This document shows, in pieces, positions 41,546-52,819 of a DNA stretch of 64,000 nucleotides. The DNA is from Candidatus Moraniibacteriota bacterium. GTDB lineage: Bacteria > Patescibacteriota > Minisyncoccia > Moranbacterales > UBA2206. The DNA lies in NCBI GenBank assembly GCA_030645735.1, contig JAUSNP010000005.1, positions 8,151-72,150 on the forward strand. The letters are read 5' to 3'. The notes under the pieces were generated by a model that worked only from the letters and a program-made list of their open reading frames with translations, was not told where the DNA came from and did no database searches. Positions within the stretch are counted from its first letter, which is position 1; the number at the start of each line of letters is the position of its first letter. Both the position numbers and the translations under genes were made by a program.

Positions 41546-41651
41546 AACGTAAATTGTGAAACGCATAACGCGCAACAAAATTATTTGCAAGATATAATTT
41601 TTTTAAAAATATTTCGCGTTTCAGGTTTTGCGATACGCGTTATACGATAAA
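41546..41651 (+). repeat. intergenic heptamer-motif region (family member B)
   Basis: agaacgtaaattgtgaaacgcATAACGCgcaac ... tatttcgcg ... ttgcgatacgcgttatacg upstream of the ATG at 41652. Confidence 0.5.
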
Positions 41652-42092
41652 ATGACTGTTGAAAAAATTCTTTTGGAATTTGATGTGGAATTGAAAAATC
41701 TTTTGCCAGCGTTGAAAAAAATCAATGCTAGTTTTGGCTATGTTTCAGAAATGGATGCACAAAAAGTAGCTGACTACTTTTCTATGTCACTCAGCAAGGT
41801 TTATGAAACTGCCAGTTTCTATGATTTGATCAAAACCAAGCCACAGCCACCTTTAGTGATTCAAGTTTGTTCCGGAGCTAATTGCGCGGTGAAAAATGCC
41901 TACAAAGTCATTGTAGAAATTGAAAACCAATTGCACATCAAAGCTGGGGATGATTTCAATCCGAATGTGAAACTGGAAATCATCAGTTGTCTCGGACAAT
42001 GCGGTCGCGGACCAATTATGATCATCAACAAAAAAATCTTCACCCAAGTTACACCCAGCAGCGCGCGGGAAATTTTGCAGAATTATATGTAA
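41652..42092 (+). CDS. NuoE/HoxE/HydC-like thioredoxin-fold [2Fe-2S] subunit
   Basis: CSGANCAVKN...ISCLGQCGRGP (Cx4C...Cx3C); start moved to the ATG at 41652 (the track used TTG at 41628). Confidence 0.75.
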   Translation: MTVEKILLEFDVELKNLLPALKKINASFGYVSEMDAQKVADYFSMSLSKVYETASFYDLIKTKPQPPLVIQVCSGANCAVKNAYKVIVEIENQLHIKAGDDFNPNVKLEIISCLGQCGRGPIMIINKKIFTQVTPSSAREILQNYM

Positions 42093-42433
42093 AATATTTT
42101 GCTGTTCTTATGTAAAAAATCGAGGTCTTACCTCGATTTTTTTGTTGTGCCATAAAAACTTAAAAGCCCTCAATGCAGGAGACAGAGTCTGCTCACAATA
42201 TTTATTTCTGCTACGAAAGAAATATTATGAGCAGACCCTAGGCGTCTGAGTCCCTTGAAAAATTTAACGGAAAAAATAATTTTTTCCCTGAAAAACCAGG
42301 TGGGTCTCAATTTTTCGCCTCTCCATTCTGAAGGCTTTCGGCTATATTATAGTCCTGTTTTCAAATTCTGGCAAGGGTAGATTTTTGTTTGAACAATTTT
42401 TGGCTTAAAATAGGCAATAATCTTGGTAAATAT

Positions 42434-42465
42434 TGACTTTATTTCAATTTTGCTGTATAATGACA
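42434..42465 (+). promoter_or_regulatory. sigma70-like promoter
   Basis: TTGACT, 17 nt, TATAAT, ~45 nt upstream of the SD AAGGAGG and the ATG at 42513. Confidence 0.6.
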
Positions 42466-42512
42466 AATTACGGTAAGTAATTCAGAAACTCAAAACCTCA
42501 AGGAGGATTGTC

Positions 42513-42908
42513 ATGAAGAAATTACTTGTTCTTTTTGCAGTATTTTTGGTGTTGGTGCCGTCTATGTCATTTGCTAGACTTAACGCGAATCAAGGCGGAT
42601 GGCGTGGTGATGGACGGAGACATGAACATCGCGGCGGTGAAAATCGTCGCCAGAATAATAAAAAACATAGCTATGAGCATCATCGTAGCAGTCGCGGTGG
42701 AGGCATAGTCGGCGGGTTCATTCGCGATGTATTAACTGCAACAACAGTAATCGTTGTAGGCGGCGTAGTAATTGGGGTGGCCAGCGCAATAGAACGGTCA
42801 GCACAGAATGGTCAGTGCTACAGAGATGTGACACCTGGATACACTGATGGGTATGGGCGGTTCATATCAACTGGCCCGACTCAAAGAACTCAAGTTTCTT
42901 GTCGGTAG
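42513..42908 (+). CDS. exported His/Arg/Gly-rich protein with a glycine-zipper TM segment
   Basis: 131 aa; signal peptide MKKLLVLFAVFLVLVPSMSFA; His-rich stretch RRHEHRGGENRRQNNKKHSYEHHRSSRGGG; GxxxG-rich helix. Confidence 0.5.
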   Translation: MKKLLVLFAVFLVLVPSMSFARLNANQGGWRGDGRRHEHRGGENRRQNNKKHSYEHHRSSRGGGIVGGFIRDVLTATTVIVVGGVVIGVASAIERSAQNGQCYRDVTPGYTDGYGRFISTGPTQRTQVSCR

Positions 42909-43023
42909 TATCAAATGGGGGGTAGCTTAGAAAAATGGCGGACTTGTGAAACGCAAGGATGCCATTTTTATTTTGAAAAAAATATGCAAAAAGTGATTGT
43001 CGGGATATAATAGAAGTACTTGT

Positions 43024-43141
43024 CCCGCACTAACTTTTCAAGTCGCTTGTGTCACTTTTGAAGTATACGCGGGAGAGTTAATTATTTACGACTTTTAAAT
43101 ATAATTTCACAAGAATTATTATGTTGAAAAGTTAGTGCGGG
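43024..43141. promoter_or_regulatory. 18-bp perfect inverted repeat bracketing the 5' leader and start codon of the NuoF-like gene
   Basis: CCCGCACTAACTTTTCAA (43024-43041) and TTGAAAAGTTAGTGCGGG (43124-43141); the ATG follows at 43142. Confidence 0.6.
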
Positions 43142-44386
43142 ATGAAGAAGGAAACAAAAATAATAACCAAAAATTGGGGTCAGATAGATCCAAATGAGAT
43201 TGATGACTCGATTGAAGTGGGTGGCTATCAAGCGTTGGAAAAATTCATTCACAAAATGACGCCAGTTTTGGCTTTGGAGGAAATCAAGCTTTCTGGCTTG
43301 TGTGGGCGCGGTGGTGCTGGTTTTCCAACGGGAATGAAATTGGAGTCTGTGCAGAAAGAGAAAAGCAAAGAAAAATATTTTATTTGCAATCTGGATGAAT
43401 CAGAGCCAGGGACATACAAAGATCGTTCGATTGTAGACAATGATCCACATATGCTTTTAGAAGGCGTCATTATCGAATCTTTGATTGTGGGTGCACGAAA
43501 AGCGTTCGTCTATGTCAATGGTAACTATCAAAGACAAATTGAAATTTTGCAACGGGCGGTGGAGCAAGCACAAGAAAAAAGGATTCTTGGTGAGAAAATT
43601 TTAGGTTCCAGATATTCATTGGAGGTTGAAATTTTTGCAGGTGCAGGCGCGTATATTTGCGGTGAAGAAACTGCCCTTATTAATTCGATTGAAGGCAATC
43701 GCGGTGAGCCGAAATCACGTCCACCTTTTCCAACGCAAGTCGGACTTTTTGGCAAACCAACGGCCGTGAATAACGCTGAGACCGTGGCCAACATTCCCTG
43801 GATAATTTCCAATGGTGGAAAAAAATATGCAGCCATTGGTTCAAAAAAATCAGCTGGTACCAAACTTTTCATCGTGAATGGATCCGTCAAAAATCCAGAT
43901 GTTTTTGAGGCGCCATTGGGCACAAAACTTTCTGATTTGATTGAAAAGTATGCTGGTGGGATGCAGAAAGGTAAAAATTTTTGGTTTGCGCAGGTGGGCG
44001 GCTCATCTGGGCGTTTGGTTCTGGAAAAAGATTTGGTTAGGAAATTGGAATATGATCGTGAAGCCAAAGTTCCTTTGGGATCTGGCGCAATTTTGGTGGT
44101 GGACAAAACAGTGGATATTCATGAATTGTTGTTGTCGTGGATGAGTTTTTTCCATCGCGAATCCTGTGGCAAATGCGTGCCATGTCGCGAAGGCACATTT
44201 CGCCTCTGGGAAATCGCCAAGCGTCTGCAAGATGGACAAGTTTCTGAGCGGGATGTGGCGGCTATCAAAGACATTCTGTGGACGCTCAGCAACACCACAT
44301 TTTGTCCATTGGGCAAATTTGCAGCCACGGCTTTTGGTGATGCGATAAGCAATTTTCAAAAAGAGATTTATAAGCTATCTAGGTGA
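43142..44386 (+). CDS. NuoF/HoxF/HydB-like NAD(P)H-binding FMN/[4Fe-4S] subunit
   Basis: 414 aa; GRGGAGFPTGMK, YICGEETALINSIEG, CGKCVPCREGT. Confidence 0.85.
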   Translation: MKKETKIITKNWGQIDPNEIDDSIEVGGYQALEKFIHKMTPVLALEEIKLSGLCGRGGAGFPTGMKLESVQKEKSKEKYFICNLDESEPGTYKDRSIVDNDPHMLLEGVIIESLIVGARKAFVYVNGNYQRQIEILQRAVEQAQEKRILGEKILGSRYSLEVEIFAGAGAYICGEETALINSIEGNRGEPKSRPPFPTQVGLFGKPTAVNNAETVANIPWIISNGGKKYAAIGSKKSAGTKLFIVNGSVKNPDVFEAPLGTKLSDLIEKYAGGMQKGKNFWFAQVGGSSGRLVLEKDLVRKLEYDREAKVPLGSGAILVVDKTVDIHELLLSWMSFFHRESCGKCVPCREGTFRLWEIAKRLQDGQVSERDVAAIKDILWTLSNTTFCPLGKFAATAFGDAISNFQKEIYKLSR

Positions 44387-44394
44387 TATAAGTT

Positions 44395-45801
44395 ATGAGG
44401 ATAAAAATCAATACAAAAGAATATGAAGCCAAAGACGGAGAAATGATTCTGGATGTTTGTCGTAGAAATGGAATTCAAGTTCCAACTTTGTGTTCAATTC
44501 CAAAATTTCATGAGGGTGTGTGTCGGATTTGCATGGTGGAAAATGGTGGGCGATTGACGACTTCTTGCAATGTGAAAGCTTCTGAAGGTATGGAGGTTGT
44601 GACAGAAAGTGAAGATGTGTCCAAGGCGCGCCGAATCAATTTGGAATTGTTGTGGGCGGACCACGCCGGCAAATGTTCAACTTGCAAGAAAAATCAGCGT
44701 TGTGAATTGCAAAATCTGGCCATTAGTCAAAAGATTGAAAATTTTCATTTTGTGCCACGCAAAGAAGAAATGACAGATAGTGAGAATCTCGATCTTTTGA
44801 AAGACAATCGTTCTCGGGTGGTGGTGGACGATGGCAACGCGTGTCTAACACGCACTACAGAATTGTGTGTGGAATGTCGTCGTTGCATCAATGTGTGTCC
44901 AACCAAAGAATTGTCATTCAACCATCGCGCGGGAGACACGGTGGTTGGCACAGCCTATGAAAAGTCGCTGGATTGCATCTTCTGTGGTCAGTGTGTGAAG
45001 AATTGTCCGACAGGAGCAATTACGGACAAAAATGATTTGACCAAGATTATGATAGATCTTGCTGACTTGAAAAAAATGGCCATAGCGTTGATTGATCCGG
45101 CAGTTTTGGAAAGCGTGGCCTTTGAACATCCTGAAATTGATTCACGTGGAAAATTGATTAGCGCCCTGAAAGGAATTGGTTTTGAAAAAGTTTTTGACTT
45201 GGGCTTTGGTATGGAATTGGCTTTGGAAAATATGACGCAGGAGATTAAAAAAAGTAGTAAAAACAATCTACTGCTCAACCATTGTCCATCATTCAATTTG
45301 TTTGTAAAAAAATATTATCCGCAGTTTGCCAAGAACATTCTGACTGTGGCACATCCTGATGAGTTGACGGCCGATTTTCTGAAAACTGAATTTGCCAAGA
45401 AGGAAAAAATAAACTCAGAGGATTTAGTAGTGATCTCATTGTCATCTTGTGTGGCAAAGAAAAAAGAGAAGGGGAAGAATTTGGATTATGTCATCACGGT
45501 TAGAGAATTGGGACGCATAATTCGTCAGAAAAATTTGAAATTGAAAGATATCAAAGAAAGTGATTTCAGTTCTGGACTGGCCGTGAAAGATGAAAAAATA
45601 AAGAGCATCACAAGAACTGGTGGGATGGCGGAGATGTTGGCCAAGAAATTGAAAGTCAAATATATAGTGGCTGATGGCGTGTCACAAATAAAAAACATTC
45701 TGCGGGATTTGGAAAAAGGACGAGTGGAAACTAAAATCATTGAAGCGATGGTGTGTGAAGGAGGATGTGTGAATGGTGGCGGACAGGCTAGGAAATTATA
45801 A
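44395..45801 (+). CDS. [FeFe]-hydrogenase HydA-like protein (NuoG-like N-terminus plus H-cluster domain with a variant L1 motif)
   Basis: 468 aa; N-terminal 2Fe-2S, H-x3-C-x2-C-x5-C, two CxxCxxCxxxCP; H-domain aligns to C. pasteurianum CpI (FDLGFG; L1 NHCPSF in place of TSCCPxW; L2 SSCVAKKKE; L3 EAMVCEGGCVNGGGQ). Confidence 0.7.
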   Translation: MRIKINTKEYEAKDGEMILDVCRRNGIQVPTLCSIPKFHEGVCRICMVENGGRLTTSCNVKASEGMEVVTESEDVSKARRINLELLWADHAGKCSTCKKNQRCELQNLAISQKIENFHFVPRKEEMTDSENLDLLKDNRSRVVVDDGNACLTRTTELCVECRRCINVCPTKELSFNHRAGDTVVGTAYEKSLDCIFCGQCVKNCPTGAITDKNDLTKIMIDLADLKKMAIALIDPAVLESVAFEHPEIDSRGKLISALKGIGFEKVFDLGFGMELALENMTQEIKKSSKNNLLLNHCPSFNLFVKKYYPQFAKNILTVAHPDELTADFLKTEFAKKEKINSEDLVVISLSSCVAKKKEKGKNLDYVITVRELGRIIRQKNLKLKDIKESDFSSGLAVKDEKIKSITRTGGMAEMLAKKLKVKYIVADGVSQIKNILRDLEKGRVETKIIEAMVCEGGCVNGGGQARKL

Positions 45802-45935: not shown

Positions 45936-46139
45936 ATGTGTCTTGCAATCCCTGGAAAAATTCTAAAAATCAAAGGTGAAACAGCCGAAATTGATTTCAA
46001 TGGCATCCGCAAAGAAGTGAATATTGCCATGGTTGATGTTGCAATCGGCGATTTTGTCATGGTGCACGCTGGTTTTGCGATTGAAAAGATGGACATGGAT
46101 TTGGCTTCAGAAATTCAAGGATATTTAGATAAAAAATGA
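45936..46139 (+). CDS. hypC: hydrogenase maturation factor HypC
   Basis: 67 aa; MCLAIPGKILKI. Confidence 0.85.
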   Translation: MCLAIPGKILKIKGETAEIDFNGIRKEVNIAMVDVAIGDFVMVHAGFAIEKMDMDLASEIQGYLDKK

Positions 46140-47176
46140 AATTAGACAAACAAAAACTTTTGCAAAGTATTAAAGATAATGCCAATCAAATTGGTCGGCC
46201 TTTGCGATTGATGGAATTGTGCGGGACGCATTCGCAGTCGATTGCGCAACATGGCATCAAGAGTTTGATGCCCAAAAATGTAAAGTTGGTTTCCGGCCCA
46301 GGCTGTCCGGTGTGTGTGACTGATCAGACGGACATTGATGTGATGGTGGGCTTGGCTTTGGCTGGCATTCCCGTGGCGGTCTATGGTGACACGATGCAGG
46401 TGCCGGGGAATTTGATGAGCTTGGAGGAGGCGAAAAGGCAGGGTGCAGACGTGAGCATTGTCTATGATATCACTGAGGCGGTGGCGATGAGCCAAGAGAA
46501 AAGAGGCTTGGTATTTTTTGGTTTGGGATTTGAGACGACCACTGGCATGACCGCTTGGGCAATTCAGCAAGGTCTAATTGTTTATTGCGCACACAAAATT
46601 TTTCCACCGGCGATGAGCGCGCTTTTGGCTAACAAAAAAATCAAAGTCGGTGGCTTTTTGAATCCCGGTCACGTCAGCTCCATCATTGGTACGAAAGTTT
46701 ATGAACAATTCAAAATTCCACAAGTGGTGGCTGGCTTTGATGGAGAAGGAATACTCTTGGCAATTGAAATGTTGTTGACACAGATTTTGGAAAACAAAAC
46801 AATTGTGCAAAACGCATATACCAGCTTGGTCAAAAAGGACGGCAATCCCAAAGCGCGCAAATTGATTTCTGAAGTTTTCGAAATCTCGGATGCGCGTTGG
46901 CGTGGGTTGGGAGAAATCAAAAAATCAGGCTTGAAAATTCGCAAGAAATATAAAAAGCAAGATGCGGAATTTGTGTATGCCAATCTGATCAAAAAAATCA
47001 GAAAAGAAATCAAACCCAAGTTGAGTGCTTGCAAATGTGGCTTGGTGTTGCAAGGACTCATTGAATCCAAGGAATGTCCATTGTTTGGCAAGGTCTGCAC
47101 GCTAGATAATCCACAAGGTGCTTGCATGGTTTCGGTAGAAGGGAGTTGTAATGTAGAATATAGATATGGAAAATAA
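46136..47176 (+). CDS. hypD: hydrogenase maturation factor HypD
   Basis: 346 aa; CGTHSQSI, GPGCPVCV, C-terminal CxxC-rich region. Confidence 0.85.
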   Translation: MKLDKQKLLQSIKDNANQIGRPLRLMELCGTHSQSIAQHGIKSLMPKNVKLVSGPGCPVCVTDQTDIDVMVGLALAGIPVAVYGDTMQVPGNLMSLEEAKRQGADVSIVYDITEAVAMSQEKRGLVFFGLGFETTTGMTAWAIQQGLIVYCAHKIFPPAMSALLANKKIKVGGFLNPGHVSSIIGTKVYEQFKIPQVVAGFDGEGILLAIEMLLTQILENKTIVQNAYTSLVKKDGNPKARKLISEVFEISDARWRGLGEIKKSGLKIRKKYKKQDAEFVYANLIKKIRKEIKPKLSACKCGLVLQGLIESKECPLFGKVCTLDNPQGACMVSVEGSCNVEYRYGK

Positions 47177-47564
47177 CAAGATTAAAACTATAGTAAGCTG
47201 GCTTCTTGTTTTGGTGTGGGCAATTATTATTTTTGGTCTTTCGGCTATGCCAGGCACTGGAGATCACCCATATAGCTTGTTCTATTTTGTGGAAAGAAAA
47301 ACTTTTCATGTGCTTGAATATTTTGTCTTAAGTATTTTGTTGTGGCGAGCTTGGGCGCAAAATTTTTCCCAGAAAAAATCATTTTGGTTTGCAGGAATAA
47401 CAACCTTGTTATATGCAGCATCAGATGAGTGGCACCAGACTTTTGTTTTCGGCCGAGAAGGTGTGTTGAGAGATGTAGTTATTGATTCAATTGGAATATT
47501 TCTAGCTGTAATTTTTATTTTGAAATTTAAACAATGGAAAGAGAAAAGAAAACAATTGAATTAG
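47166..47564 (+). CDS. VanZ-family membrane protein
   Basis: 132 aa; overlaps the hypD 3' end and the hypE 5' end. Confidence 0.6.
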   Translation: MENNKIKTIVSWLLVLVWAIIIFGLSAMPGTGDHPYSLFYFVERKTFHVLEYFVLSILLWRAWAQNFSQKKSFWFAGITTLLYAASDEWHQTFVFGREGVLRDVVIDSIGIFLAVIFILKFKQWKEKRKQLN

Positions 47565-48562
47565 AATCGGGCGCGGGTGGAGAAAAATCTAATAGTTTGA
47601 TTTCACAAATCCGAAAAAATTTTGCGGTGAGTCGCAAGTGGAAAAATATGCAGGATGATGGTGCGGTTTTTGACCTAGGTATGAACAATGTAGAGACGCC
47701 CCGGCAGGGCGTCTCTACTGCGTCGAATAAATTAGTCTTTACCACCGACGCATTTATTGTGGATCCAATTTTTTTTCCAGGTGGCGACATTGGCAAGATT
47801 GCGATGTGTGGGACAATCAATGATTTGTCAGTGATGGGTGCCAAGCCGATTGGCATTGGTTTGAGTTTGGTGATTGAAGAGGGTTTTCCCGAAGAAGATT
47901 TGCAAAAAATTGTGGCATCAATTGGAAAAGTTTCAGCTGAGTCGGGTGTACCGATTGTGACAGGTGACACCAAAGTCACTGAGCGTGGCAAAATCGACAA
48001 AATTGAAATCACCACCTCTGGTGTTGGATTGGCGAAAAAAATAATTGGAAATAGCGGGGCAAAAGTGGGGGATGTGGTCATTGCTTCTGGCAATTTGGGT
48101 GAACATGCGGTGGCATTGTTGGCCAAGCGTTTCAACTATCAAACGAAAATAAAAAGTGATTGTCAGACACTGACTCGCGAAATTCAAAGCGTTGCTAAAT
48201 ATCTGACTGCTTGCAAGGATCCAACTCGCGGTGGCATGGCAGCGGTACTCAATGAAATTGCGGAAAAATCCAAAGTCAAAATCGTGCTGGCTGAAAACAC
48301 CTTGCCATTTTCCAAAGAAACCGTGGCACTCTCTGAGCTTCTAGGAATTGATAAATTCTCTTTTCCATCGGAAGGGCGCTTTGTGGCCACAGTTCAGCCA
48401 AAGCAAGCCAAAAAAGCCTTGCAGATTTTGCAAAAATTCAATGCTCAGGCCAAAATTATTGGCTCAGTTGAGCCAGGAAAAGGCGTATTCTTGAATACCA
48501 GCCTAGGTGGCACCAAAAAAATCGATGTGCCACGCGGAAAACTAATTCCGAGGATTTGCTAG
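47534..48562 (+). CDS. hypE: hydrogenase maturation factor HypE
   Basis: 342 aa; FTTDAFIVDPIFFPGGDIGKIAMCGTINDL; C-terminal PRIC. Confidence 0.85.
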   Translation: MEREKKTIELESGAGGEKSNSLISQIRKNFAVSRKWKNMQDDGAVFDLGMNNVETPRQGVSTASNKLVFTTDAFIVDPIFFPGGDIGKIAMCGTINDLSVMGAKPIGIGLSLVIEEGFPEEDLQKIVASIGKVSAESGVPIVTGDTKVTERGKIDKIEITTSGVGLAKKIIGNSGAKVGDVVIASGNLGEHAVALLAKRFNYQTKIKSDCQTLTREIQSVAKYLTACKDPTRGGMAAVLNEIAEKSKVKIVLAENTLPFSKETVALSELLGIDKFSFPSEGRFVATVQPKQAKKALQILQKFNAQAKIIGSVEPGKGVFLNTSLGGTKKIDVPRGKLIPRIC

Positions 48563-49753
48563 ATAAAAGATTATTTGTCCAAAAGAAAGTCCTGCATCGC
48601 CACGCGGGATCTTTTTATTTACATAAGCACCTTTCGAGATTAGATATTCAGAGATTATTTTGTTGTTGGCAATGCCACCAGCCAGAAAGATCGGAAGCTG
48701 TAGGGGTTTCACCCCTACAGCTAGGCCTTCCGCGATATAGAGTTGCGCAGTGGCGGCTAGGCGTTTTTTGTCTTTGTGTAAATTTTTTATCAAGTACTCG
48801 AAAAGACAAGTCGTATTTAGGATGACCGATGACCGATGACTGATGACTCTTTCTGGCATCTCAATCTTTGGTTTTATATCCAAATACGGTTTAGTTGAAT
48901 TAGCTTCCAGTTTCAGGATTGGTTCGTGTTTGTGCTTTCTTTCGTTTTTACAAAAACCCAACAAAATAGAGACGGCATCCAAAACTCGGCCACAGCTTGA
49001 AGTTTCGATGCAATTGAAATTTTGTTGCAGCTGATTATATAAAACCTCAAATTCTTGCACTGAATAATATTTTTTTACAAAAGAATAAATAAAATCTTTT
49101 TGAGATTTGAGATTTGAGATTTGAGATTTTCTTGTATCTTGTATTTTGTATCTTGTGATTTTGTCCAGTATGCTAATCAACATTCGCGCTGGTTCCTGAA
49201 TAGCCAATTCTCCACCAATCATCACTTGATTTTCAAGACTCCCAATCCTTTCAATTTTTATTTTTTGTTTTGAAATTTTGTCATTGGAAATTGGAAATTG
49301 TAAATTGGAAATTGCGAAGCATTCACCTCCCCAAATTTTGCCATCGGTGCCATAGCCCGTACCATCCAAAGCGATGCCACAGAATTTAGGTGGTAGTTTG
49401 TAGTTGGTAGTTTGTAGAGCTTTTTCGCCAACTGCAGAAAAGATGTGGGCGATATGGTGTTGGATTTGAATATGTTTGGCCTTATACTTTTTGGCCAAAT
49501 CTTTGCCTAGTATAGTAGTCTTATATAGCGGATGTAAATCAGTCAGAATAATATCCGGTTTGATTTTATTTTTTCTTAAGAATTTGTTCAATTCGTGTTG
49601 GTATTCGTTAAAATTCGTGTCTTTCAAGAGGTCTCCAAAATCTTCAGAAAAGTAAATTTTATTATAGCTAAAAACCGAAAAATTGCCATTGGATTCTGGT
49701 CCAAGAGCTAAGATTTGCTGTTTGTTTTTTTGTGGATAATTGAATACTCGCAT
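48542..49753 (-). CDS. hypF: HypF C-terminal (Kae1/YgjD-like) domain only
   Basis: 403 aa aligning to E. coli HypF residues ~375-750 (ILALGPESNGNF, HHIAHIFSAVGE, FLAGGIANN); no acylphosphatase, Zn-finger or YrdC domains at this locus. Confidence 0.7.
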   Translation of the reverse strand: MRVFNYPQKNKQQILALGPESNGNFSVFSYNKIYFSEDFGDLLKDTNFNEYQHELNKFLRKNKIKPDIILTDLHPLYKTTILGKDLAKKYKAKHIQIQHHIAHIFSAVGEKALQTTNYKLPPKFCGIALDGTGYGTDGKIWGGECFAISNLQFPISNDKISKQKIKIERIGSLENQVMIGGELAIQEPARMLISILDKITRYKIQDTRKSQISNLKSQKDFIYSFVKKYYSVQEFEVLYNQLQQNFNCIETSSCGRVLDAVSILLGFCKNERKHKHEPILKLEANSTKPYLDIKPKIEMPERVISHRSSVILNTTCLFEYLIKNLHKDKKRLAATAQLYIAEGLAVGVKPLQLPIFLAGGIANNKIISEYLISKGAYVNKKIPRGDAGLSFGQIIFYLANPRN

Positions 49754-49772: not shown

Positions 49773-49843
49773 TGTCATTCCCGTGAAAACGGGAATCTAG
49801 TATCGAGGCTTTGTGACTAGATTCCGGCTCAAGGCCGGAATGA
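49773..49843. repeat. compound palindromic repeat element (copy 2)
   Basis: GTCATTCCCGtgaaaACGGGAATC ... GATTCCGGCtcaagGCCGGAATGAC. Confidence 0.7.
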
Positions 49844-49938
49844 CAATGCGTATTTAGTATATCAAGTTATGTGGCTTTGTTGAATTGGCAAAAATCTGGT
49901 AAAATATGAGTATAAGGAAAATAAAAATTACTGAAAAT

Positions 49939-50697
49939 ATGTCAAAACCAAAAGTAGCGATTGTGAGTTTGACTTCCTGTGAGGGTTGTCAGTTTGCTTT
50001 GTTGGATCTGGGAGAAAAATTCTTGGATTTTGTAGGCAAAATTGAAATGATTGATTTTCGTTTGATCGAGGATGAAGAAGATGATGGCGGAGAGCTTGAC
50101 CTAGTTCTCGTAGAGGGCAATCCAGTGACTGAGGAAAATGTGAAAACATTGGAATCATTGCGAAAGCGTGCCAAAATTTTGGTGGCCTTGGGTAATTGTG
50201 CGGCGATGGGTGGAATTCCAGAAATCAAGAATTATCACGAGGGCGTGAATACCATCAAGCATGTGTATAAATATATTCAAGGTATTAGCAATCCAGAAAT
50301 TAAGGAGATTGATAATTTTGTGAAAGTTGATTTTGTGTTTCCTGGGTGCCCAATCAATGGTGAGGAATTTTTGAAATATATCCCTGAGCTTTTGGAAGGC
50401 AAGATTCCGGTTATTCCAGATCAACCAGTGTGTGTGGAATGCAAAGCAGCTGGTAATCGATGTTTGCTTTTGGATAAGAAGCCATGCTTTGGACCAATGA
50501 TCCAAGGTGGTTGCAATGCCGTGTGTCCAACTTCCAGAATGACTTGCCAGGGTTGTCGGGGTTTGCGCCCAACTGGCAATGTGAAGGCTATGCGTGCAGC
50601 TTTGAAAAATATGATCACAGACCATCAGTTTGAAAATATAACCGAAATCTTCGGACTCAGAGATGATATTGAGGCCAAGGAAAAATTATCAAAATAA
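49939..50697 (+). CDS. [NiFe]-hydrogenase small subunit, group-3 type
   Basis: MSKPKVAIVSLTSCEGCQFALLD; distal Cys-rich region CVECKAAGNRC...CFGP...GCNAVCP. Confidence 0.8.
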   Translation: MSKPKVAIVSLTSCEGCQFALLDLGEKFLDFVGKIEMIDFRLIEDEEDDGGELDLVLVEGNPVTEENVKTLESLRKRAKILVALGNCAAMGGIPEIKNYHEGVNTIKHVYKYIQGISNPEIKEIDNFVKVDFVFPGCPINGEEFLKYIPELLEGKIPVIPDQPVCVECKAAGNRCLLLDKKPCFGPMIQGGCNAVCPTSRMTCQGCRGLRPTGNVKAMRAALKNMITDHQFENITEIFGLRDDIEAKEKLSK

Positions 50698-50703
50698 AAT
50701 ATT

Positions 50704-51963
50704 ATGCAAATAAAAATCAATCATATCGCAAAAATGGAAGGACACGCGGGCTTTATGGCCAGTGTTCTCAATGGCGATGTTAAAAGTGCCAAGCTCGAAG
50801 TGCAAGAGGGAATTCGCCTAATTGAAGGAGTTTTGATTGGTCGGCACTATGCTGATATGCCGACAATTGCTCAGCGCATCTGTGGAATTTGTCCAGTGGT
50901 GCACAATTTGACAGCTATCAAGGCTTTGGAGAGTGCTATGGGTGTTTCCGTGTCGCCTGAGGCTGAAAAATTGCGCGTGGTGATGGAATTGGGTCAAATC
51001 ATACATTCGCACTCCCTGCATCTATTCTTCTTGTCTCTAGCTGATTTCTTGGATATGGATAACGATATTCAACTCATCAGCACCTATCCAGAAGAGGCCA
51101 AAATTGCCATGCGCTTGCGAGATTATGGGATGGATATTGTGCGAGTGATTGGCGGGCGTGTAGTGCATCCTTTGACCAACGAAGTGGGCGGTTTCAAAAA
51201 GGCACCAGACGCAGATGCTCTACGAAAAATCGTGACTGACAGTAGTCAGGCGCTGAAAGATGCAGTGGCGTTAGGAGAATTTTTCAAGAAAATAAAAATC
51301 CCAGATTTTCAACGCGAGACCGAATATATATGTCTAGGAAAAAATGGGGAGTATGCAATTTATGACGGTGATGTAATCTCTTCACAGGGTTTGCACATTC
51401 CAGTGGAAAAATTTGAAAGCAATTTTCAAGAATTGCAAAAACAAACTGAATTGATCAAAAAAGTTGTGCATGAAGGCAAGAGCTATATGATTGGCGCGAT
51501 TGCTAGAATCAACAATAGTCGTGATAAGCTTAGTCCACAGGCTAGCAGTTATCTTGATAGTTTGAATTTCACTTTTCCAGATTACAATCCATTTCATAAC
51601 ATTTTGTGTCAGATGGTGGAGGTTATTCATTGTATTGAACAATCAAGTAAATTGATCAAGGAATTATTGCATTCTGATTTGAACAATGTGGTGACTGGAA
51701 AATATGAAATCAAAGAAGGGGTTGGGGTGGCCGCAGTGGAAGCTCCGCGCGGAACGCTCTATTATCATGTAGAAGTTGATCACAACGGCTATCTGAAAAA
51801 TGTAAATATCATCACGCCAACTGCACAATTCTTGTCGAATTTGGAAGATGATGTGGCAGACTATATCAAAGAAATTATTGACCTGAAAGACGCTGATAAA
51901 CAAAAAAAACTCCGCGGTTTCATTCGTGCCTATGATCCTTGCATTTCTTGCGCAGTACACTAA
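50704..51963 (+). CDS. [NiFe]-hydrogenase large subunit, group-3 type, without a C-terminal extension
   Basis: 419 aa; N-terminal RICGICPVVH; C-terminal DPCISCAVH immediately followed by the stop. Confidence 0.85.
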   Translation: MQIKINHIAKMEGHAGFMASVLNGDVKSAKLEVQEGIRLIEGVLIGRHYADMPTIAQRICGICPVVHNLTAIKALESAMGVSVSPEAEKLRVVMELGQIIHSHSLHLFFLSLADFLDMDNDIQLISTYPEEAKIAMRLRDYGMDIVRVIGGRVVHPLTNEVGGFKKAPDADALRKIVTDSSQALKDAVALGEFFKKIKIPDFQRETEYICLGKNGEYAIYDGDVISSQGLHIPVEKFESNFQELQKQTELIKKVVHEGKSYMIGAIARINNSRDKLSPQASSYLDSLNFTFPDYNPFHNILCQMVEVIHCIEQSSKLIKELLHSDLNNVVTGKYEIKEGVGVAAVEAPRGTLYYHVEVDHNGYLKNVNIITPTAQFLSNLEDDVADYIKEIIDLKDADKQKKLRGFIRAYDPCISCAVH

Positions 51964-52053
51964 GGATATAAATCACTAATCTACACGAATTTTTCACTAA
52001 TAATTCGCGAATATTTGAGAATAATTAGGGATTGATTTGTGACTTAAATCATC

Positions 52054-52431
52054 ATGACTGAATTAAACCAAGTTTATAAATGTAATGTGTGTGGCAATAT
52101 TGTGGAAGTTTTGCACACGGGAGTTGGGGAATTGGTATGTTGCGGACAACCGATGGGATTGCAAATAGAAAAGACTGAAGAAGAAAAATTTGAAAAACAT
52201 CGACCGGTGGTGGAAAAAACGGATGCAGGTGTGATTGTGCGTGTAGGATCTGTGGCGCATCCGATGGAAAGTGAGCATTATATTGAATGGATTGAGGTAA
52301 TCACTGAACACAGAGCATATCGCAAAAATTTGGAACCAGGTGGAGCGCCAGCAGCAGAATTTTTCTTTGATGCTGAGCATTTCGAAGTGCGCGCTTATTG
52401 CAATGTGCATGGGCTGTGGAAGAACGTATAA
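52054..52431 (+). CDS. dfx: desulfoferrodoxin (2Fe superoxide reductase)
   Basis: 125 aa; N-terminal CNVCGN...CCG; centre II H...H...CNVHGLW. Confidence 0.85.
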   Translation: MTELNQVYKCNVCGNIVEVLHTGVGELVCCGQPMGLQIEKTEEEKFEKHRPVVEKTDAGVIVRVGSVAHPMESEHYIEWIEVITEHRAYRKNLEPGGAPAAEFFFDAEHFEVRAYCNVHGLWKNV

Positions 52432-52546
52432 CGTAAATCGCAAAACGTGTAACGCACAACACGCATAATATAAATCGCAAATTGTATAATTTATAACGCA
52501 AATCATGTAACGATTCACGTTCCACGATTCACGTTCCACGAAATTC
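52425..52546 (+). repeat. intergenic heptamer tandem-repeat array (family member C)
   Basis: gaacgTATAACGtaaatcgcaaaacgtgtaacgc ... ATTCACGTTCCACGATTCACGTTCCACGaaattc, then the ATG. Confidence 0.7.
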
Positions 52547-52819
52547 ATGCATGATTTTCTACTAGCCAAAGAAATTGTTGATGAAGTTCTAGCGATTGCT
52601 GCAGAAAAAAAACTGACAGCGATCAAAAGTGTTGATGTTGAAATTGGCACAATCGCTTTGGCGCATGATGGTTTTGATGAGCACACCGAAGATATTGATG
52701 TGGAAAATCTTCAATTTGGACTAGAAAACATTGCTAAAAACACAATATTGAAAAATACCGAGTTTAAGTTTAAAAAAGTATCAGGGGATAATTGGAAAAT
52801 CACCAACATCGAAATCTAA
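52547..52819 (+). CDS. HypA-like hydrogenase nickel-insertion protein lacking the zinc-finger cysteines
   Basis: 90 aa; MHDFLLAKEIVDEVL...VDVEIGTIA matches the HypA N-terminus (MHE motif); no Cys anywhere in the protein. Confidence 0.45.
   Translation: MHDFLLAKEIVDEVLAIAAEKKLTAIKSVDVEIGTIALAHDGFDEHTEDIDVENLQFGLENIAKNTILKNTEFKFKKVSGDNWKITNIEI

What the first reader, a model, noticed from the sequence alone, without database searches (positions are those of the whole stretch)
41628..52819. Mosaic hydrogenase locus combining an [FeFe]-HydABC-like module with a group-3 [NiFe] hydrogenase and a reduced Hyp maturation set
In order: a NuoE-like [2Fe-2S] subunit; an exported His-rich protein; a NuoF-like FMN/NAD(H) subunit; a HydA homolog; hypC, hypD, a vanZ-like gene and hypE; a C-terminal-only hypF (reverse strand); [NiFe] small and large subunits; dfx; and a zinc-finger-less hypA-like gene. 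The E/F/HydA trio looks like a trimeric electron-bifurcating [FeFe] hydrogenase (HydABC). E/F followed by a NuoG-like subunit and then a small and large subunit is also the layout of the NAD-linked group-3d [NiFe] enzyme (HoxEFUYH). The locus reads as either, with the full-length HydA-like protein taking the place of HoxU. No hydE, hydF, hydG, hypB or endopeptidase gene is in the window.
Basis: partly seen in the sequence, partly recalled or inferred. Interest (0 to 1): 0.8.

Follow-up and report, generated by a model that had tools for sequence, protein, structure and literature searches.

The report
NiFe hydrogenase with fossil FeFe subunit
A Moranbacteria (candidate-phyla) bacterium most likely makes hydrogen with a nickel-iron enzyme bolted onto the NADH-handling module of an older iron-iron hydrogenase, whose former catalytic subunit survives only as a shrunken, probably non-catalytic electron-wire protein; this is a new variant of an enzyme type first described in 2022, not a new kind.

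Summary
The window comes from a Candidatus Moranbacteria MAG. The same order, TIM-FBA-NuoE-NuoF-HydA-like-hypCD(E)-hypF(reverse)-NiFe small-large-(dfx)-hypA-like-GAPDH, recurs in 23 other species-level genomes.

The HydA-like protein is not full length. At 468 aa it fails NCBI's [FeFe]-hydrogenase cut-offs and lacks the C-terminal 61 residues of CpI. It keeps the four cysteines of the [4Fe-4S] part of the H-cluster. It has lost the proton-relay Cys and most residues that line the di-iron site. Sister lineages carry either a canonical 584-aa HydA with no NiFe or hyp genes, or a 342-aa stump with the NiFe genes kept.

The NuoF-like subunit is core-only and carries non-bifurcating signatures. The NiFe subunits are closest to group 3b. 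The large subunit ends at the mature C-terminal His, so no endopeptidase is needed.

Best reading: a non-bifurcating, NAD(H)-linked five-subunit [NiFe] hydrogenase. It is an independent, younger analogue of Acetomicrobium NiFe-HydABCSL and a functional analogue of Hox. The classification is new variant of a known kind. A true two-site hybrid is not excluded (about 0.15).

The parts
41628..42092 (+). HydC/NuoE-like thioredoxin-fold [2Fe-2S] subunit (154 aa as listed from TTG)
   Evidence: PF01257 at 9.4e-33. The Cys motifs CSGANC...CLGQC are present. Conserved directly after FBA and before NuoF in the related loci. Followed by a hairpin-plus-T-run at 42118-42145.
42513..42908 (+). Lineage-specific insertion: small ORF (131 aa) with a signal peptide, a His/Arg/Gly-rich stretch and a hydrophobic segment. 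Not a conserved component of the system.
   Evidence: No Pfam family. Its own 11/12 promoter-like site lies at 42433-42461, with an AAGGAGG just upstream of the ATG and a hairpin-plus-T-run downstream. No tblastn match in any of 80 related loci. The NuoE-to-NuoF gap is 2-200 nt in most loci.
43142..44386 (+). HydB/NuoF-like FMN/NAD(H) subunit, core only (414 aa)
   Evidence: PF01512, PF10531 and PF10589. It aligns to residues 114-519 of A. mobile NiFe-HydB and 113-521 of A. woodii HydB, so the N-terminal and C-terminal cluster domains are absent. GRGGAGFPTG, CGKCVPC...FCPLG, T91/K93 and GGSSG are present.
44395..45039 (+). HydA-like protein, N-terminal F-cluster domain (residues 1-215): [2Fe-2S], His-ligated [4Fe-4S] and two [4Fe-4S] clusters
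   Evidence: PF13510, PF10588 and Fer4 families. All cluster ligands scored (CpI H94, C98, C101, C107, C147-C200) are conserved in 81-82 of 82 family members. This part also matches A. mobile NiFe-HydA (7t2r_A, residues 8-210) and HoxU.
45040..45801 (+). HydA-like protein, shrunken H-domain (residues 216-468). It keeps the four [4Fe-4S]H cysteines but has lost the di-iron-site and proton-relay residues.
   Evidence: PF02906 over residues 229-462. It fails NF040763 (316 vs 765 bits) and TIGR02512 (190 vs 406 bits). C297, C352, C454 and C458 are kept. The motifs read NHCPS in place of TSCCP and SSC in place of MPC. CpI 433-465 and 514-574 are absent. The AF2 model has pLDDT 89-97 here and Foldseek TM 0.75 to CpI and T. 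kivui HydA.
45936..46139 (+). hypC (67 aa, MCLAIPG N-terminus)
   Evidence: PF01455 at 2.6e-25 and TIGR00074 at 70 vs 48 bits. It follows the HydA-like gene in 19/19 class A loci.
46136..47176 (+). hypD
   Evidence: PF01924 at 8.4e-120.
47166..47564 (+). VanZ-like membrane protein inserted between hypD and hypE. Present only in a subset of related loci.
   Evidence: PF04892 at 1.3e-10. Found in L004, L005, L006, L009 and L018 only.
47534..48562 (+). hypE (ends ...PRIC)
   Evidence: TIGR02124 at 333 vs 251.6 bits. C-terminal PRIC motif.
48542..49753 (-). hypF reduced to the Kae1-like carbamoyltransferase domain (403 aa). No acylphosphatase, zinc-finger or YrdC domains.
   Evidence: PF17788 and PF22521 only. 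It matches TIGR00143 positions 385-739 of 741, at 212 vs 466 bits. The 120 closest database relatives are 359-517 aa with the same two domains (one also carries a PF02543 hit), all labelled Patescibacteria or unnamed.
49906..50697 (+). [NiFe] hydrogenase small subunit, group 3b-like, 12 Cys (enough for three [4Fe-4S] clusters), no Tat signal
   Evidence: PF01058. Best PDB match is P. furiosus SHI delta at 2.1e-37, ahead of A. mobile HydS at 3e-18. Best NCBIfam match is ShyD/HydD.
50704..51963 (+). [NiFe] hydrogenase large subunit, group 3b-like, 419 aa. Motifs RICGICPVVH ... DPCISCAVH followed directly by stop.
   Evidence: PF00374. Best PDB match is P. furiosus SHI alpha at 7.8e-68 over the full length. 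All 20 related loci end at the same His. More than 120 database clusters are at least 72% identical, nearly all 419 aa.
52054..52431 (+). Desulfoferrodoxin (superoxide reductase). A conserved neighbour, probably oxygen protection.
   Evidence: PF06397 and PF01880. It follows the large subunit in most related loci.
52547..52819 (+). HypA-like nickel chaperone reduced to the N-terminal domain (90 aa). It has MHD... and an LAHDG.DEHTED loop but no CxxC zinc finger.
   Evidence: PF01155 over profile positions 1-69 of 112. NCBIfam HypA models match over positions 1-67 only and below cut-off. Conserved in 19 related loci.
39755..41545 (+). Context: triosephosphate isomerase (39755-40522) and class II fructose-bisphosphate aldolase (40625-41545) immediately upstream
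   Evidence: PF00121 and PF01116. This synteny is conserved in classes A and B and in part of class C.
52841..53845 (+). Context: NAD-dependent glyceraldehyde-3-phosphate dehydrogenase immediately downstream
   Evidence: PF00044 and PF02800. Conserved after the hypA-like gene in related loci.

Best explanation
The locus encodes one soluble, cytoplasmic, NAD(H)-linked [NiFe] hydrogenase built from five proteins:
- a NuoE-like [2Fe-2S] subunit;
- a core-only NuoF-like FMN/NAD(H) subunit;
- a HydA-derived iron-sulfur connector;
- a group-3b-like small subunit with three clusters;
- a group-3b-like large subunit.

Inferred electron path: NADH -> FMN -> NuoF [4Fe-4S] -> HydA-like [2Fe-2S] -> [4Fe-4S] -> His-ligated [4Fe-4S] -> small-subunit distal, medial and proximal clusters -> Ni-Fe site -> H2, or the reverse. 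The path is drawn by analogy with the A. mobile NiFe-HydABCSL structure.

The H-domain of the HydA-like protein is a fossil. It probably still binds a [4Fe-4S] cluster on a dead-end side branch, but no longer a working di-iron subcluster.

The enzyme does not bifurcate electrons. It simply couples NADH and H2. The inferred role is to re-oxidise the NADH made by the adjacent glycolytic GAPDH when a partner organism keeps H2 low.

The enzyme arose in Moranbacteria. An NADH-dependent NuoE-NuoF-HydA [FeFe] hydrogenase, still intact at the same site in sister lineages, acquired a NiFe small/large module plus hyp genes. The old catalytic domain then decayed from about 584 to about 468 to about 342 aa.

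Maturation uses a pared-down set: HypC, HypD, HypE, a Kae1-domain-only HypF and a zinc-finger-less HypA. No protease is needed because the large subunit is made without a C-terminal extension.
For: Shown:
- Gene content and order.
- The same order in 23 other species-level genomes.
- HypC follows the HydA-like gene in 19/19 class A and 20/24 class B loci, and in 0/25 loci with canonical HydA. NiFe small subunit lies within 10 kb in 9/11 (A), 11/19 (B) and 0/20 (C) loci.
- The five structural genes are nearly contiguous in L011, L020, L041, L050, L053 and L058.
- No HyhB/HyhG-type diaphorase in the window or the related loci.
- The HydA-like protein fails NF040763 (316 vs 765 bits) and TIGR02512 (190 vs 406 bits). 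A sister-lineage HydA (L022) passes both.
- In 82 family members the F-cluster ligands are essentially invariant (81-82 of 82) and the four [4Fe-4S]H Cys are kept in 79-81.
- In the same 82 members, C299 is H/F/Y/N, E279 is M/L/I, M353 is S, A230 is D (82/82), Q325 is D/E, E361 is deleted, and CpI 433-465 and 514-574 are missing. All of these positions are invariant in 17 canonical relatives.
- The H-domain evolves faster than in canonical relatives at equal N-domain divergence: 48% vs 73% identity.
- The class B stump lacks L1, L3 and C355, yet keeps the NuoEF, hyp and NiFe genes.
- NiFe ligand motifs are invariant and the large subunit is 71-90% identical across the loci.
- The NuoF-like protein ends before the B2 ligands (H525, C531, C536 of A. 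mobile HydB). It lacks the B3/B4/B5 domains and has T91, K93 and GGSSG (criteria from PMC8880783, PMC9304861, PMC7311640).
- In the NuoF tree, classes A and B form one clade, sister to the class C subclade that shares TIM-FBA synteny.

Inferred: physical assembly of the five subunits, the exact path, the direction of catalysis and the link to GAPDH.
Against: - No direct evidence shows that the NiFe dimer binds the NuoEF-HydA-like module. A multimer model could not be run.
- The genes are split into several transcription units by unrelated insertions and a reverse-strand hypF.
- Group 3b small subunits normally dock onto HyhB, and the rest of the genome could not be searched for hyhBG.
- The four H-cluster cysteines, K358 (K/R), P231, P324 and the GGGQ motif are still conserved in the 468-aa class.
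- Known sensory [FeFe] hydrogenases also lack C299 and M353 yet bind an H-cluster (my own knowledge, not tested here). Loss of the di-iron site is therefore likely but not proven.
- One class B subclade has hyp genes but no NiFe genes within 5 kb.
Confidence: 0.6

Rival explanations
1. True two-site hybrid. The 468-aa HydA-like protein still carries an H-cluster, either catalytic or, as in sensory group C/D enzymes, slow and regulatory. The complex would then have both an [FeFe] and a [NiFe] H2 site. It would be a bacterial counterpart of the archaeal group F/G hybrid hydrogenases.
For: - The four H-cluster cysteines are kept in 79-81 of 82 members. K358 is K/R in 81/82, P231 is kept in 75/82, P324 in 79/82, and GGGQ is kept.
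- The H-domain folds confidently as an [FeFe] H-domain and matches only true H-domains in the PDB.
- Archaeal hybrids exist and are active, and some active archaeal enzymes occur in genomes without maturases (PMC11216029).
Against: - The proton relay is gone: C299 to H/F/Y/N, E279 to a hydrophobic residue, R286 and S319 variable, E361 deleted.
- The pocket is re-lined with acidic residues: D230 in 82/82 and D/E325 in 80/82.
- About 100 H-domain residues are missing, and constraint is relaxed.
- The protein fails both NCBIfam hydrogenase cut-offs.
- Sister lineages discard the site altogether while keeping the rest of the locus.
- No hydEFG in about 80 kb.
Confidence: 0.15
2. Two separate enzymes that merely sit side by side. 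One is a NuoE-NuoF-HydA-like oxidoreductase of its own. The other is a NiFe heterodimer that uses a different partner encoded elsewhere (HyhBG, ferredoxin or another).
For: - The two gene sets are 4 kb apart in the window, separated by hyp genes, a VanZ gene and a reverse-strand hypF.
- Terminator-like and promoter-like sites break the locus up.
- Unrelated genes, even a secreted matrixin, are inserted between structural genes in related loci.
- The small subunit has the three-cluster 3b form, which normally docks onto HyhB.
- Jaffe et al. note CPR 3b enzymes whose beta and gamma subunits were not detected (PMC7304191).
Against: - The association is strict: degenerate HydA goes with hyp/NiFe genes, and intact HydA goes with their absence.
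- A NuoEF-HydA trimer whose H-site is dead or deleted would have no catalytic end of its own.
- No hyhBG-like gene lies in the 64-kb window, the roughly 15 kb beyond it, or the 10-kb flanks of 23 loci.
- There is a structural precedent for exactly this docking in NiFe-HydABCSL (PMC8880783).
Confidence: 0.15
3. Electron-bifurcating NiFe-HydABCSL proper. The complex would couple H2 to simultaneous NAD+ and ferredoxin reduction, as in Acetomicrobium mobile.
For: Same five subunit types. The NuoF-like core is most similar to Bfu-family HydB proteins (9bov_B 3.2e-112, A. woodii HydB 4.7e-109, A. mobile HydB 1.5e-107).
Against: - The NuoF-like protein is 414 aa and lacks the B5 N-terminal domain, the B3/B4 C-terminal ferredoxin domain and the B2 ligands H525, C531 and C536. 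These are described as the hallmark of bifurcating members (PMC8880783, PMC9304861).
- It has T91/K93 and GGSSG instead of A/E..M and GGPSG, which are the non-bifurcating signatures of PMC7311640.
Confidence: 0.07

Closest known systems
Electron-bifurcating NiFe-HydABCSL (NiFe-Bfu) of Acetomicrobium mobile, PDB 7T2R/7T30 (PMC8880783)
   Same: Five subunit types: a NuoE-like, a NuoF-like and a HydA-like connector without a working H-cluster, plus NiFe small and large subunits. In the A. mobile structure the former H-cluster position holds a plain Fe-S cluster on a dead-end branch. The same is inferred here, along with the path FMN-B1-A1-A2-A3-S-[NiFe].
   Different: - Here HydB is core-only, so the enzyme is not bifurcating.
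- The small subunit has three clusters, and both NiFe subunits are 3b-like rather than Hox-like.
- The large subunit has no C-terminal extension.
- The HydA-like C-terminal domain is a recognisable, recently degraded H-domain about 40% identical to real HydA in sister lineages. By contrast, A. mobile HydA matches only over the N-terminal 212 residues and not at all over the H-domain. This points to an independent origin.
Archaeal hybrid hydrogenases: group F/G [FeFe] with group 3f/3g [NiFe] (Greening et al. 2024, PMC11216029)
   Same: HydB, HydC, a HydA H-domain and group 3 NiFe small and large subunits are encoded together. Both show an intertwined history of the two hydrogenase classes.
   Different: - In group F, HydA is fused to the small subunit, retains all H-cluster residues and is active after artificial maturation.
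- The archaeal systems have a separate NuoG-like HydD, and their HydB carries extra domains.
- Here HydA is unfused, keeps its own NuoG-like N-terminus, and has lost the proton relay and the pocket residues.
- The host here is a CPR bacterium.
Bidirectional NAD-linked [NiFe] hydrogenase HoxEFUYH (group 3d)
   Same: The predicted chemistry (NAD(H) <-> H2, no bifurcation) and the module logic E-F-U-Y-H. The class B 342-aa protein approaches HoxU in size and role.
   Different: - The NiFe subunits are closer to 3b than to Hox: large subunit 7.8e-68 vs 3.1e-36, small subunit 2.1e-37 vs 3.4e-18.
- The connector scores 112 bits against a 333-bit HoxU cut-off.
- The small subunit has three clusters, not one.
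- There is no HoxW and no C-terminal extension.
Group 3b [NiFe] hydrogenase / sulfhydrogenase (P. furiosus SHI, HyhBGSL) and the CPR 'hyd1' clade (PMC7304191)
   Same: These are the closest relatives of the large and small subunits. Lengths match (419 and 263 aa), the small subunit has three clusters, and the enzyme is cytoplasmic.
   Different: - No HyhB or HyhG genes. A NuoE/NuoF/HydA-derived module is in their place.
- NCBIfam equivalog cut-offs are not reached (254 vs 880 bits).
Non-bifurcating NADH-dependent [FeFe] hydrogenases (S. wolfei Hyd1ABC, S. aciditrophicus HydAB; NCBIfam NF040763 'group A6')
   Same: This is the ancestral scaffold: NuoE-like, then short NuoF-like with non-bifurcating signatures, then M3-type HydA, in that gene order. 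Sister Moranbacteria carry a HydA that passes NF040763 at the same genomic site.
   Different: In the window the HydA member fails NF040763 (316 vs 765 bits) and has a degraded H-domain. Catalysis has been handed to an added NiFe module.

Membership tests
Catalytic [FeFe] hydrogenase, group A (HydA) | Four cysteine ligands of the H-cluster (CpI C300, C355, C499, C503) | tested here: met
   Window residues C297, C352, C454 and C458. Kept in 79-81 of 82 members of the 468-aa class.
Catalytic [FeFe] hydrogenase, group A (HydA) | L1 motif TSCCP with the proton-relay Cys299, and the proton path E279/S319/E282/R286 | tested here: not met
   The window has NHCPS (His at 299), M at 279, L at 319 and S at 286. 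Across the class, 299 is H40/F19/Y14/N7. All 17 canonical relatives are invariant at these positions.
Catalytic [FeFe] hydrogenase, group A (HydA) | L2 motif MPCxxKKxE and pocket residues A230, S232, Q325, F417 | tested here: not met
   The motif reads SSCVAKK followed by a deletion of CpI 360-368. Other changes: A230D (82/82), S232A, Q325D/E (80/82), F417I/M/L.
Catalytic [FeFe] hydrogenase, group A (HydA) | Curated family score (NCBIfam TIGR02512 group A; NF040763 group A6) | tested here: not met
   190 vs 406 bits and 316 vs 765 bits. The sister-lineage protein from L022 scores 495 and 766.5 bits and passes both.
Catalytic [FeFe] hydrogenase, group A (HydA) | C-terminal small-subunit-like segment (PF02256; CpI 514-574) | tested here: not met
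   The protein ends 6 residues after GGGQ. There is no PF02256 hit, whereas the 584-aa relatives have one.
Catalytic [FeFe] hydrogenase, group A (HydA) | HydE/HydF/HydG maturases in the genome | not testable with these tools
   None in the 64-kb window or about 15 kb of flanking assembly. The rest of the genome could not be read.
NiFe-HydABCSL / NiFe-Bfu (type 3 Bfu) | HydA-like, HydB, HydC and NiFe small and large subunits encoded together | tested here: met
   Physical assembly was not tested.
NiFe-HydABCSL / NiFe-Bfu (type 3 Bfu) | HydB with the B2 site (His525, Cys531, Cys536), the C-terminal B3/B4 ferredoxin domain and the N-terminal B5 domain | tested here: not met
   The 414-aa protein aligns to residues 114-519 of 7t2r_B and ends there. 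No extra domains in Pfam.
NiFe-HydABCSL / NiFe-Bfu (type 3 Bfu) | HydA in which the H-cluster is replaced by a plain Fe-S cluster | tested here: inconclusive
   Sequence evidence points that way, but cofactor content cannot be read from sequence.
NiFe-HydABCSL / NiFe-Bfu (type 3 Bfu) | Single-cluster, Hox-type small subunit | tested here: not met
   263 aa with 12 Cys. It aligns to P. furiosus SHI delta through the medial and distal cluster motifs. 7t2r_E (179 aa) covers only residues 12-173.
Non-bifurcating NADH-dependent HydB type (criteria of PMC7311640) | Thr/Ser and Lys/Ser/Ala at T. maritima HydB positions 232/234; no GGPSG at 427-431 | tested here: met
   T91, K93 and GGSSG at 286-290. 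K93 and a non-GGPSG loop occur in all Moranbacteria loci of the three classes.
Group 3b [NiFe] hydrogenase | Large subunit with RxCGxCxxxH and DPCxxCxxH motifs and closest similarity to 3b enzymes | tested here: met
   RICGICPVVH and DPCISCAVH are present. Best PDB hit is P. furiosus SHI alpha at 7.8e-68. Best NCBIfam hit is sulfhyd_HydA, below its equivalog cut-off. No formal HydDB or phylogenetic placement was done.
Group 3b [NiFe] hydrogenase | HyhB (Fe-S) and HyhG (FAD/NAD(P)) partner subunits | tested here: not met
   Absent from the window, its flanks and the 10-kb flanks of related loci. The whole genome was not searched.
Group 3d HoxEFUYH | HoxU, HoxY and HoxH orthology, and HoxW-dependent C-terminal processing | tested here: not met
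   HoxU model: 112 vs 333 bits. Hox subunits are weaker PDB hits than 3b. The large subunit ends at the mature His in all 20 loci, while a Chitinophagaceae Hox-type locus (L080) has an extension.
Archaeal hybrid group F [FeFe] / 3f [NiFe] | HydA H-domain fused to the NiFe small subunit, with intact H-cluster residues | tested here: not met
   HydA-like (44395-45801) and the small subunit (49906-50697) are separate genes 4 kb apart, and the pocket residues are degraded.

The most novel reading that the evidence does not exclude
The 468-aa HydA-like subunit still binds a di-iron (or other) cofactor on its conserved four-cysteine site, inside a re-lined, acid-rich pocket (D230, D/E325, K358). The Moranbacteria complex would then be a bacterial [FeFe]/[NiFe] hybrid with two H2-reactive sites, or a NiFe enzyme gated by an H-cluster-type H2 sensor. 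It would be matured without a recognisable HydEFG set and with a minimal Hyp set.
Probability: 0.13. Interest if true: 0.85.

Novelty: new variant of a known kind. Interest (0 to 1): 0.55.

Why it matters
- It names a likely electron partner for a very abundant group of CPR [NiFe] hydrogenases. More than 120 database clusters are at least 72% identical to this large subunit. Published surveys either left the diaphorase of such enzymes unidentified or assumed it was the P. furiosus type (PMC7304191, PMC10811913).
- Within one bacterial lineage and at one genomic site, it preserves a graded series. The series runs from an intact NADH-dependent [FeFe] hydrogenase, through a NiFe enzyme with a fossil H-domain, to a NiFe enzyme with a HoxU-like stump. 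This is a natural record of one hydrogenase class replacing the other on a shared diaphorase. It arose independently of Acetomicrobium NiFe-HydABCSL and of the archaeal hybrids.
- The stripped-down maturation set may mark the minimum needed to build a Ni-Fe site. It comprises a Kae1-only HypF and a zinc-finger-less HypA, with no HypB found in the window and no protease needed.
- For ecology, it predicts that these fermentative symbionts dispose of glycolytic NADH directly as H2. That works only if a partner keeps H2 low.

Tried and rejected
- Rfam scans found only two tRNAs in the whole window at gathering scores. In 41500-53000 they found two sub-threshold chance-level hits at permissive E-values. 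No riboswitch or known RNA governs the locus.
- I asked whether the roughly 1-kb insertion between nuoE and nuoF is phage-derived. A distant blastn against phages found nothing. Its hairpin arm is unique in the window.
- I looked for a stand-alone YrdC/TsaC next to the truncated hypF, in the window and in the hypE-hypF gaps of related loci. Only unrelated small ORFs were found.
- I considered whether the roughly 1-kb gene between the small and large subunit genes in related loci is a missing hydrogenase subunit or protease. It is a secreted matrixin-type zinc protease and is absent from that position in the window.
- I tested whether A. mobile NiFe-HydA is the direct homologue of the window protein's C-terminal domain. 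It gave no match even at E<=10.
- A homologue search with the large subunit was saturated by near-identical Patescibacteria sequences and gave no outgroup information.
- A multimer structure prediction, inspection of model coordinates for the cofactor pocket, and a whole-genome search for hydEFG, hypB, hyhBG and tsaC were not possible with the tools or caps.
- An assembly or binning artefact is rejected, because the order recurs in 23 other genomes.

Full report
**Source and observation**

The window is from a Candidatus Moranbacteria (Patescibacteria/CPR) metagenome-assembled genome. The HydA-like protein is identical to an NCBI protein of that name on a 142,606-bp contig.

- NuoE-like [2Fe-2S] protein, 41628-42092.
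- Small exported His/Arg-rich ORF, 42513-42908.
- NuoF-like protein, 43142-44386.
- HydA-like protein, 44395-45801.
- hypC, hypD, a VanZ gene and hypE, 45936-48562.
- Reverse-strand hypF that matches only positions 385-739 of the 741-position HypF profile, 48542-49753.
- NiFe small subunit, 49906-50697, and large subunit, 50704-51963.
- Desulfoferrodoxin, 52054-52431.
- 90-aa HypA N-domain protein with no zinc finger, 52547-52819.

The locus sits between TIM/FBA upstream and GAPDH downstream. No hydE/F/G, hypB, endopeptidase, hyhB/G or yrdC gene is in the window. A motif scan of all ORFs of 80 aa or more found no radical-SAM motif, and Pfam annotation covered the larger ORFs outside the ribosomal-protein cluster. 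About 15 kb of flanking sequence from an assembly of the same sample holds none either; the only radical-SAM gene there is MiaB-like.

**The arrangement is conserved, and it comes in three states**

A scan of one genome per species returned 80 loci, nearly all labelled Moranbacteria, Parcubacteria or Patescibacteria. Mapping the window's proteins onto them gives three classes, with upstream TIM-FBA synteny shared by classes A and B and by part of class C.

- Class A (21 loci, as in the window). The HydA-like protein is about 468 aa. It is followed by hypC in 19/19 loci with enough sequence, and by the NiFe small subunit within 10 kb in 9/11.
- Class B (25 loci). The protein is 342-345 aa, with the same hyp genes (hypC in 20/24) and NiFe genes (11/19). 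In L041, L050, L053 and L058 (class B), and in the class A loci L011 and L020, the structural genes NuoE-NuoF-HydA-like-...-small-large are nearly contiguous.
- Class C (29 loci). A canonical 584-595-aa HydA with NuoE and a core-only NuoF. It never has hypC (0/25) or NiFe genes (0/20).

A neighbour-joining tree of NuoF places classes A and B in one clade. That clade is sister to the class C subclade that shares the TIM-FBA synteny, and class B sequences are scattered among class A. This is a rough tree without support values. Together the mapping and the tree give the evolutionary reading. An NADH-dependent NuoE-NuoF-HydA [FeFe] hydrogenase acquired a NiFe module plus hyp genes at the same site. 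Its own catalytic domain then decayed, more than once as far as a stump.

**State of the HydA-like protein**

It scores 316 bits against NCBIfam NF040763 ('NADH-dependent [FeFe] hydrogenase, group A6', cut-off 765) and 190 bits against TIGR02512 (group A, cut-off 406). The class C protein of L022 passes both, at 766.5 and 495 bits.

I aligned 82 class A, 14 class B and 17 class C proteins with C. pasteurianum CpI. It is 574 aa, and all 19 landmark residues fall at their textbook numbers. The alignment shows the following:
- The ligands scored for the N-terminal clusters (the His-ligated and the two Cys-ligated [4Fe-4S]) are essentially invariant in every class.
- The four H-cluster cysteines are kept in 79-81 of 82 class A proteins.
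- In class A, A230 is Asp in 82/82, S232 is mostly Ala, and E279 is Met, Leu or Ile.
- R286 is Ser, Lys or Asn. The proton-relay C299 is His 40, Phe 19, Tyr 14 or Asn 7; the window has His, in the motif NHCPS.
- S319 is variable, Q325 is Asp or Glu in 80/82, and M353 is Ser in 79/82.
- E361 is deleted and F417 is aliphatic.
- CpI 433-465 and 514-574 are missing.
- All of these positions are invariant and canonical in class C.
- Class B additionally lacks CpI 270-314 and 401-574, and has Lys or Arg at C355.

At equal divergence of the N-terminal domain, class A H-domains are much less conserved than class C H-domains: 47.7% vs 73.2% identity in the 70-80% bin, and 64.4% vs 79.7% in the 80-90% bin.

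An AlphaFold2 model (pLDDT 82.6 overall, 89-97 over the H-domain) matches T. kivui HydA and CpI with TM 0.75. The domain is therefore a compact, folded H-domain remnant rather than junk. My inference is that it still holds a [4Fe-4S] cluster. The di-iron cavity has probably been re-lined, with conserved acidic residues possibly pairing with the retained Lys358, and the proton path is gone. This is likely but not proven. Sensory [FeFe] hydrogenases also lack C299 and M353 (my own knowledge).

**The NuoF-like subunit is of the non-bifurcating kind**

It is 414 aa and aligns to residues 114-519 of A. mobile NiFe-HydB and 113-521 of A. woodii HydB. It therefore lacks three things:
- the N-terminal [2Fe-2S] domain (B5);
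- the C-terminal 2x[4Fe-4S] domain (B3/B4);
- the B2 ligands His525, Cys531 and Cys536.

Feng et al. and Schut et al. describe these as the hallmark of bifurcating members (PMC8880783, PMC9304861). It also has Thr91/Lys93 and GGSSG where bifurcating HydB has Ala/Glu..Met and GGPSG. These are the criteria of Losey et al. (PMC7311640). All Moranbacteria loci of the three classes share this signature.

**The NiFe module**

- The large subunit (419 aa) is closest to P. furiosus sulfhydrogenase I alpha, at 7.8e-68 over the full length. Mvh scores 6.6e-50, A. mobile HydL 3.8e-49 and Hox 3.1e-36.
- The small subunit (263 aa, 12 Cys, no Tat signal) is closest to SHI delta, at 2.1e-37, and aligns through the medial and distal cluster motifs. 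The single-cluster A. mobile and Hox subunits cover only its first roughly 170 residues.
- NCBIfam agrees: the sulfhydrogenase models are the best hits, though below their equivalog cut-offs.
- The Ni-Fe ligand motifs RICGICPVVH and DPCISCAVH are invariant in the related loci. In all 20 loci the gene stops directly after the final His, whereas a Chitinophagaceae Hox-type locus has an extension. That explains the missing endopeptidase.
- The large subunit is far more conserved than the HydA-like protein across the same loci: 71-84% vs 45-84% identity to the window. More than 120 database clusters are at least 72% identical.
- No HyhB/HyhG-type partner is nearby in any locus.

**Mechanism proposed**

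By analogy with the A. mobile structure, where the chain is FMN-B1-A1-A2-A3-S1-[NiFe] and A4/A5 is a dead-end branch, I propose one soluble five-subunit enzyme. NADH reduces FMN. Electrons then pass through the NuoF [4Fe-4S], the HydA-like [2Fe-2S] and a [4Fe-4S] to the surface His-ligated [4Fe-4S]. They continue through the three small-subunit clusters to the Ni-Fe site. The process is reversible.

The gene content, conservation and residue states are shown. The assembly, the path and the direction are inferred. The placement between FBA/TIM and GAPDH suggests disposal of glycolytic NADH as H2. For a non-bifurcating enzyme this is feasible only at low H2 (PMC7311640), which fits a symbiotic fermenter. 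Desulfoferrodoxin next to the large subunit, and a rubrerythrin at 6862-7362, suggest oxygen protection.

**Maturation**

- HypC, HypD and HypE (ending in PRIC) look complete.
- HypF is reduced to the Kae1-like domain. This form is a large Patescibacteria family of 359-517 aa in which none of the 120 best hits carries acylphosphatase, zinc-finger or YrdC domains. Who makes carbamoyl-AMP is unexplained.
- HypA is reduced to its N-terminal domain, with a conserved MHD start and an LAHDGHPEHTED-type loop in 19 loci.
- I found no paper in the searchable library that describes either reduction.

**Comparison with what is known**

The closest system is NiFe-HydABCSL. The window differs from it in four ways:
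- a core-only HydB;
- 3b-type small and large subunits;
- no large-subunit extension;
- a connector whose C-terminal domain is a bona fide, recently degraded H-domain. The window's H-domain matches only true [FeFe] H-domains in the PDB and not 7t2r_A even at E<=10.

That last point argues for an independent origin.

The archaeal group F/G hybrids (PMC11216029) differ by the HydA-small-subunit fusion, intact H-cluster residues and a separate HydD. Hox (3d) is the functional analogue, but its subunits are not the closest relatives.

Two published CPR surveys are relevant. One treats Moranbacteria 3b enzymes as P. furiosus-like (PMC10811913). The other notes that the beta and gamma subunits are sometimes undetected (PMC7304191). 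Neither mentions a NuoEF-HydA partner. I therefore rate this a new variant of a known kind.

**Rivals and verdict**

| Reading | Probability |
|---|---|
| Best explanation (non-bifurcating five-subunit NiFe enzyme with a fossil H-domain) | about 0.6 |
| True two-site hybrid or H-cluster sensor | about 0.15 |
| Two unrelated neighbouring enzymes | about 0.15 |
| Genuinely bifurcating enzyme | about 0.07 |

The evidence for and against each is set out in the rival entries.

Its Hox-like reading is supported. Its bifurcating-[FeFe] reading and the 'full-length HydA' description are not.

Interest is moderate, at 0.55. A specialist would value three things: the natural decay series, the partner assignment for an abundant CPR hydrogenase, and the minimal maturation set. 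The enzyme architecture itself has had precedents since 2022-2024.

Noticed in passing
window 42105-42340 (both strands): A strongly structured element lies between the nuoE-like stop and the small exported ORF. It has a minus-strand 11/12 promoter-like site at 42374-42346, a long near-perfect hairpin around 42187-42250, and a bidirectional hairpin-plus-T-run at 42118-42145. The minus-strand RNA fold has z = -9.3. It matches no Rfam family, and the arm is unique in the window. It could be an unknown small RNA or a remnant of a mobile insertion.
   Followed up: partly
window 42513-42908: A small ORF with a signal peptide, a His/Arg/Gly-rich stretch, a hydrophobic segment and two C-terminal Cys. 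It has its own strong promoter-like site, an AAGGAGG and a downstream terminator-like hairpin. It is not found in any of 80 related loci. The nuoE-nuoF gap is about 1-1.6 kb only in the window and in L004, L005, L009 and L059, and those loci hold different ORFs there.
   Followed up: partly
L010, L011, L013, L016, L017, L034, L037, L041, L044, L050, L053, L054, L057, L058, L059, L079 (between the NiFe small and large subunit genes); L083 39-1052: In most related loci a roughly 315-aa exported matrixin-type zinc protease gene (HELGHxxGxxH, PF00413) sits between the small and large subunit genes. In the window the two genes are 6 nt apart. A matrixin gene lies instead about 5 kb upstream of the window start in an assembly of the same sample.
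   Followed up: partly
window 48542-49753 (minus strand) and P0241-P0360: Kae1-domain-only HypF (359-517 aa, with no acylphosphatase, zinc-finger or YrdC domains) is a large family. The named hits are all Patescibacteria (Moranbacteria, Kuenenbacteria, Terrybacteria), and NCBI mostly labels them 'hypothetical protein'. The source of carbamoyl-AMP is unexplained.
   Followed up: partly
window 52547-52819 and 19 related loci: The HypA-like protein keeps only the N-terminal domain. It has an invariant MHD start (VHD in one locus) and a His/Asp/Glu-rich loop (LAHDGHPEHTED; HHHDH-extended in L004 and L005), and no CxxC zinc finger. No hypB is nearby.
   Followed up: partly
L009 and L027 (both from MAG C12_metabat.bin.56): One MAG carries both a class A locus (468-aa HydA-like with hyp and NiFe genes) and a class C locus (canonical HydA with NuoF) on different contigs. 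Either both enzymes coexist in one organism or the bin is mixed.
   Followed up: no
L025, L026, L035, L038, L039, L043, L046, L052: One class B subclade has NuoE-NuoF-342-aa stump-hypCDE-hypF but no NiFe subunit genes in the sequence held downstream. In L025 the next genes are an AAA ATPase, a phosphoglucomutase and a class I tRNA synthetase. The NiFe genes may be elsewhere in those genomes or lost.
   Followed up: partly
L011 11687-12364, L020 11618-12337, L050 11256-11912, L058 11381-12046, L044 14739-15425: A roughly 220-240-aa protein with no Pfam hit (tested for L011) recurs just upstream of the NiFe small subunit gene in five loci. In four of them it follows a divergent HypC-like gene and hypD/hypE are not adjacent. 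In L044 it lies between hypF and the small subunit gene.
   Followed up: no
L080 (Chitinophagaceae MAG): A Hox-like locus picked up as an outgroup. It has a NuoF with the bifurcating-type signature (A..M, F, GGPSG), NiFe small and large subunits, and a large subunit with a C-terminal extension.
   Followed up: no
window 4262-21705: Accessory genes lie between the EF-G gene and the ribosomal-protein cluster:
- two Bro-N proteins (4262-5086, 8504-9355);
- a RecQ-like helicase (5183-6805);
- a rubrerythrin (6862-7362);
- a low-GC (0.33) restriction-modification-like pair, an N6/N4 methylase plus ResIII (12216-16212);
- a RhuM/Fic protein (19990-21006);
- a weak MbnB/TglH-like hit (21013-21705).

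   Followed up: no
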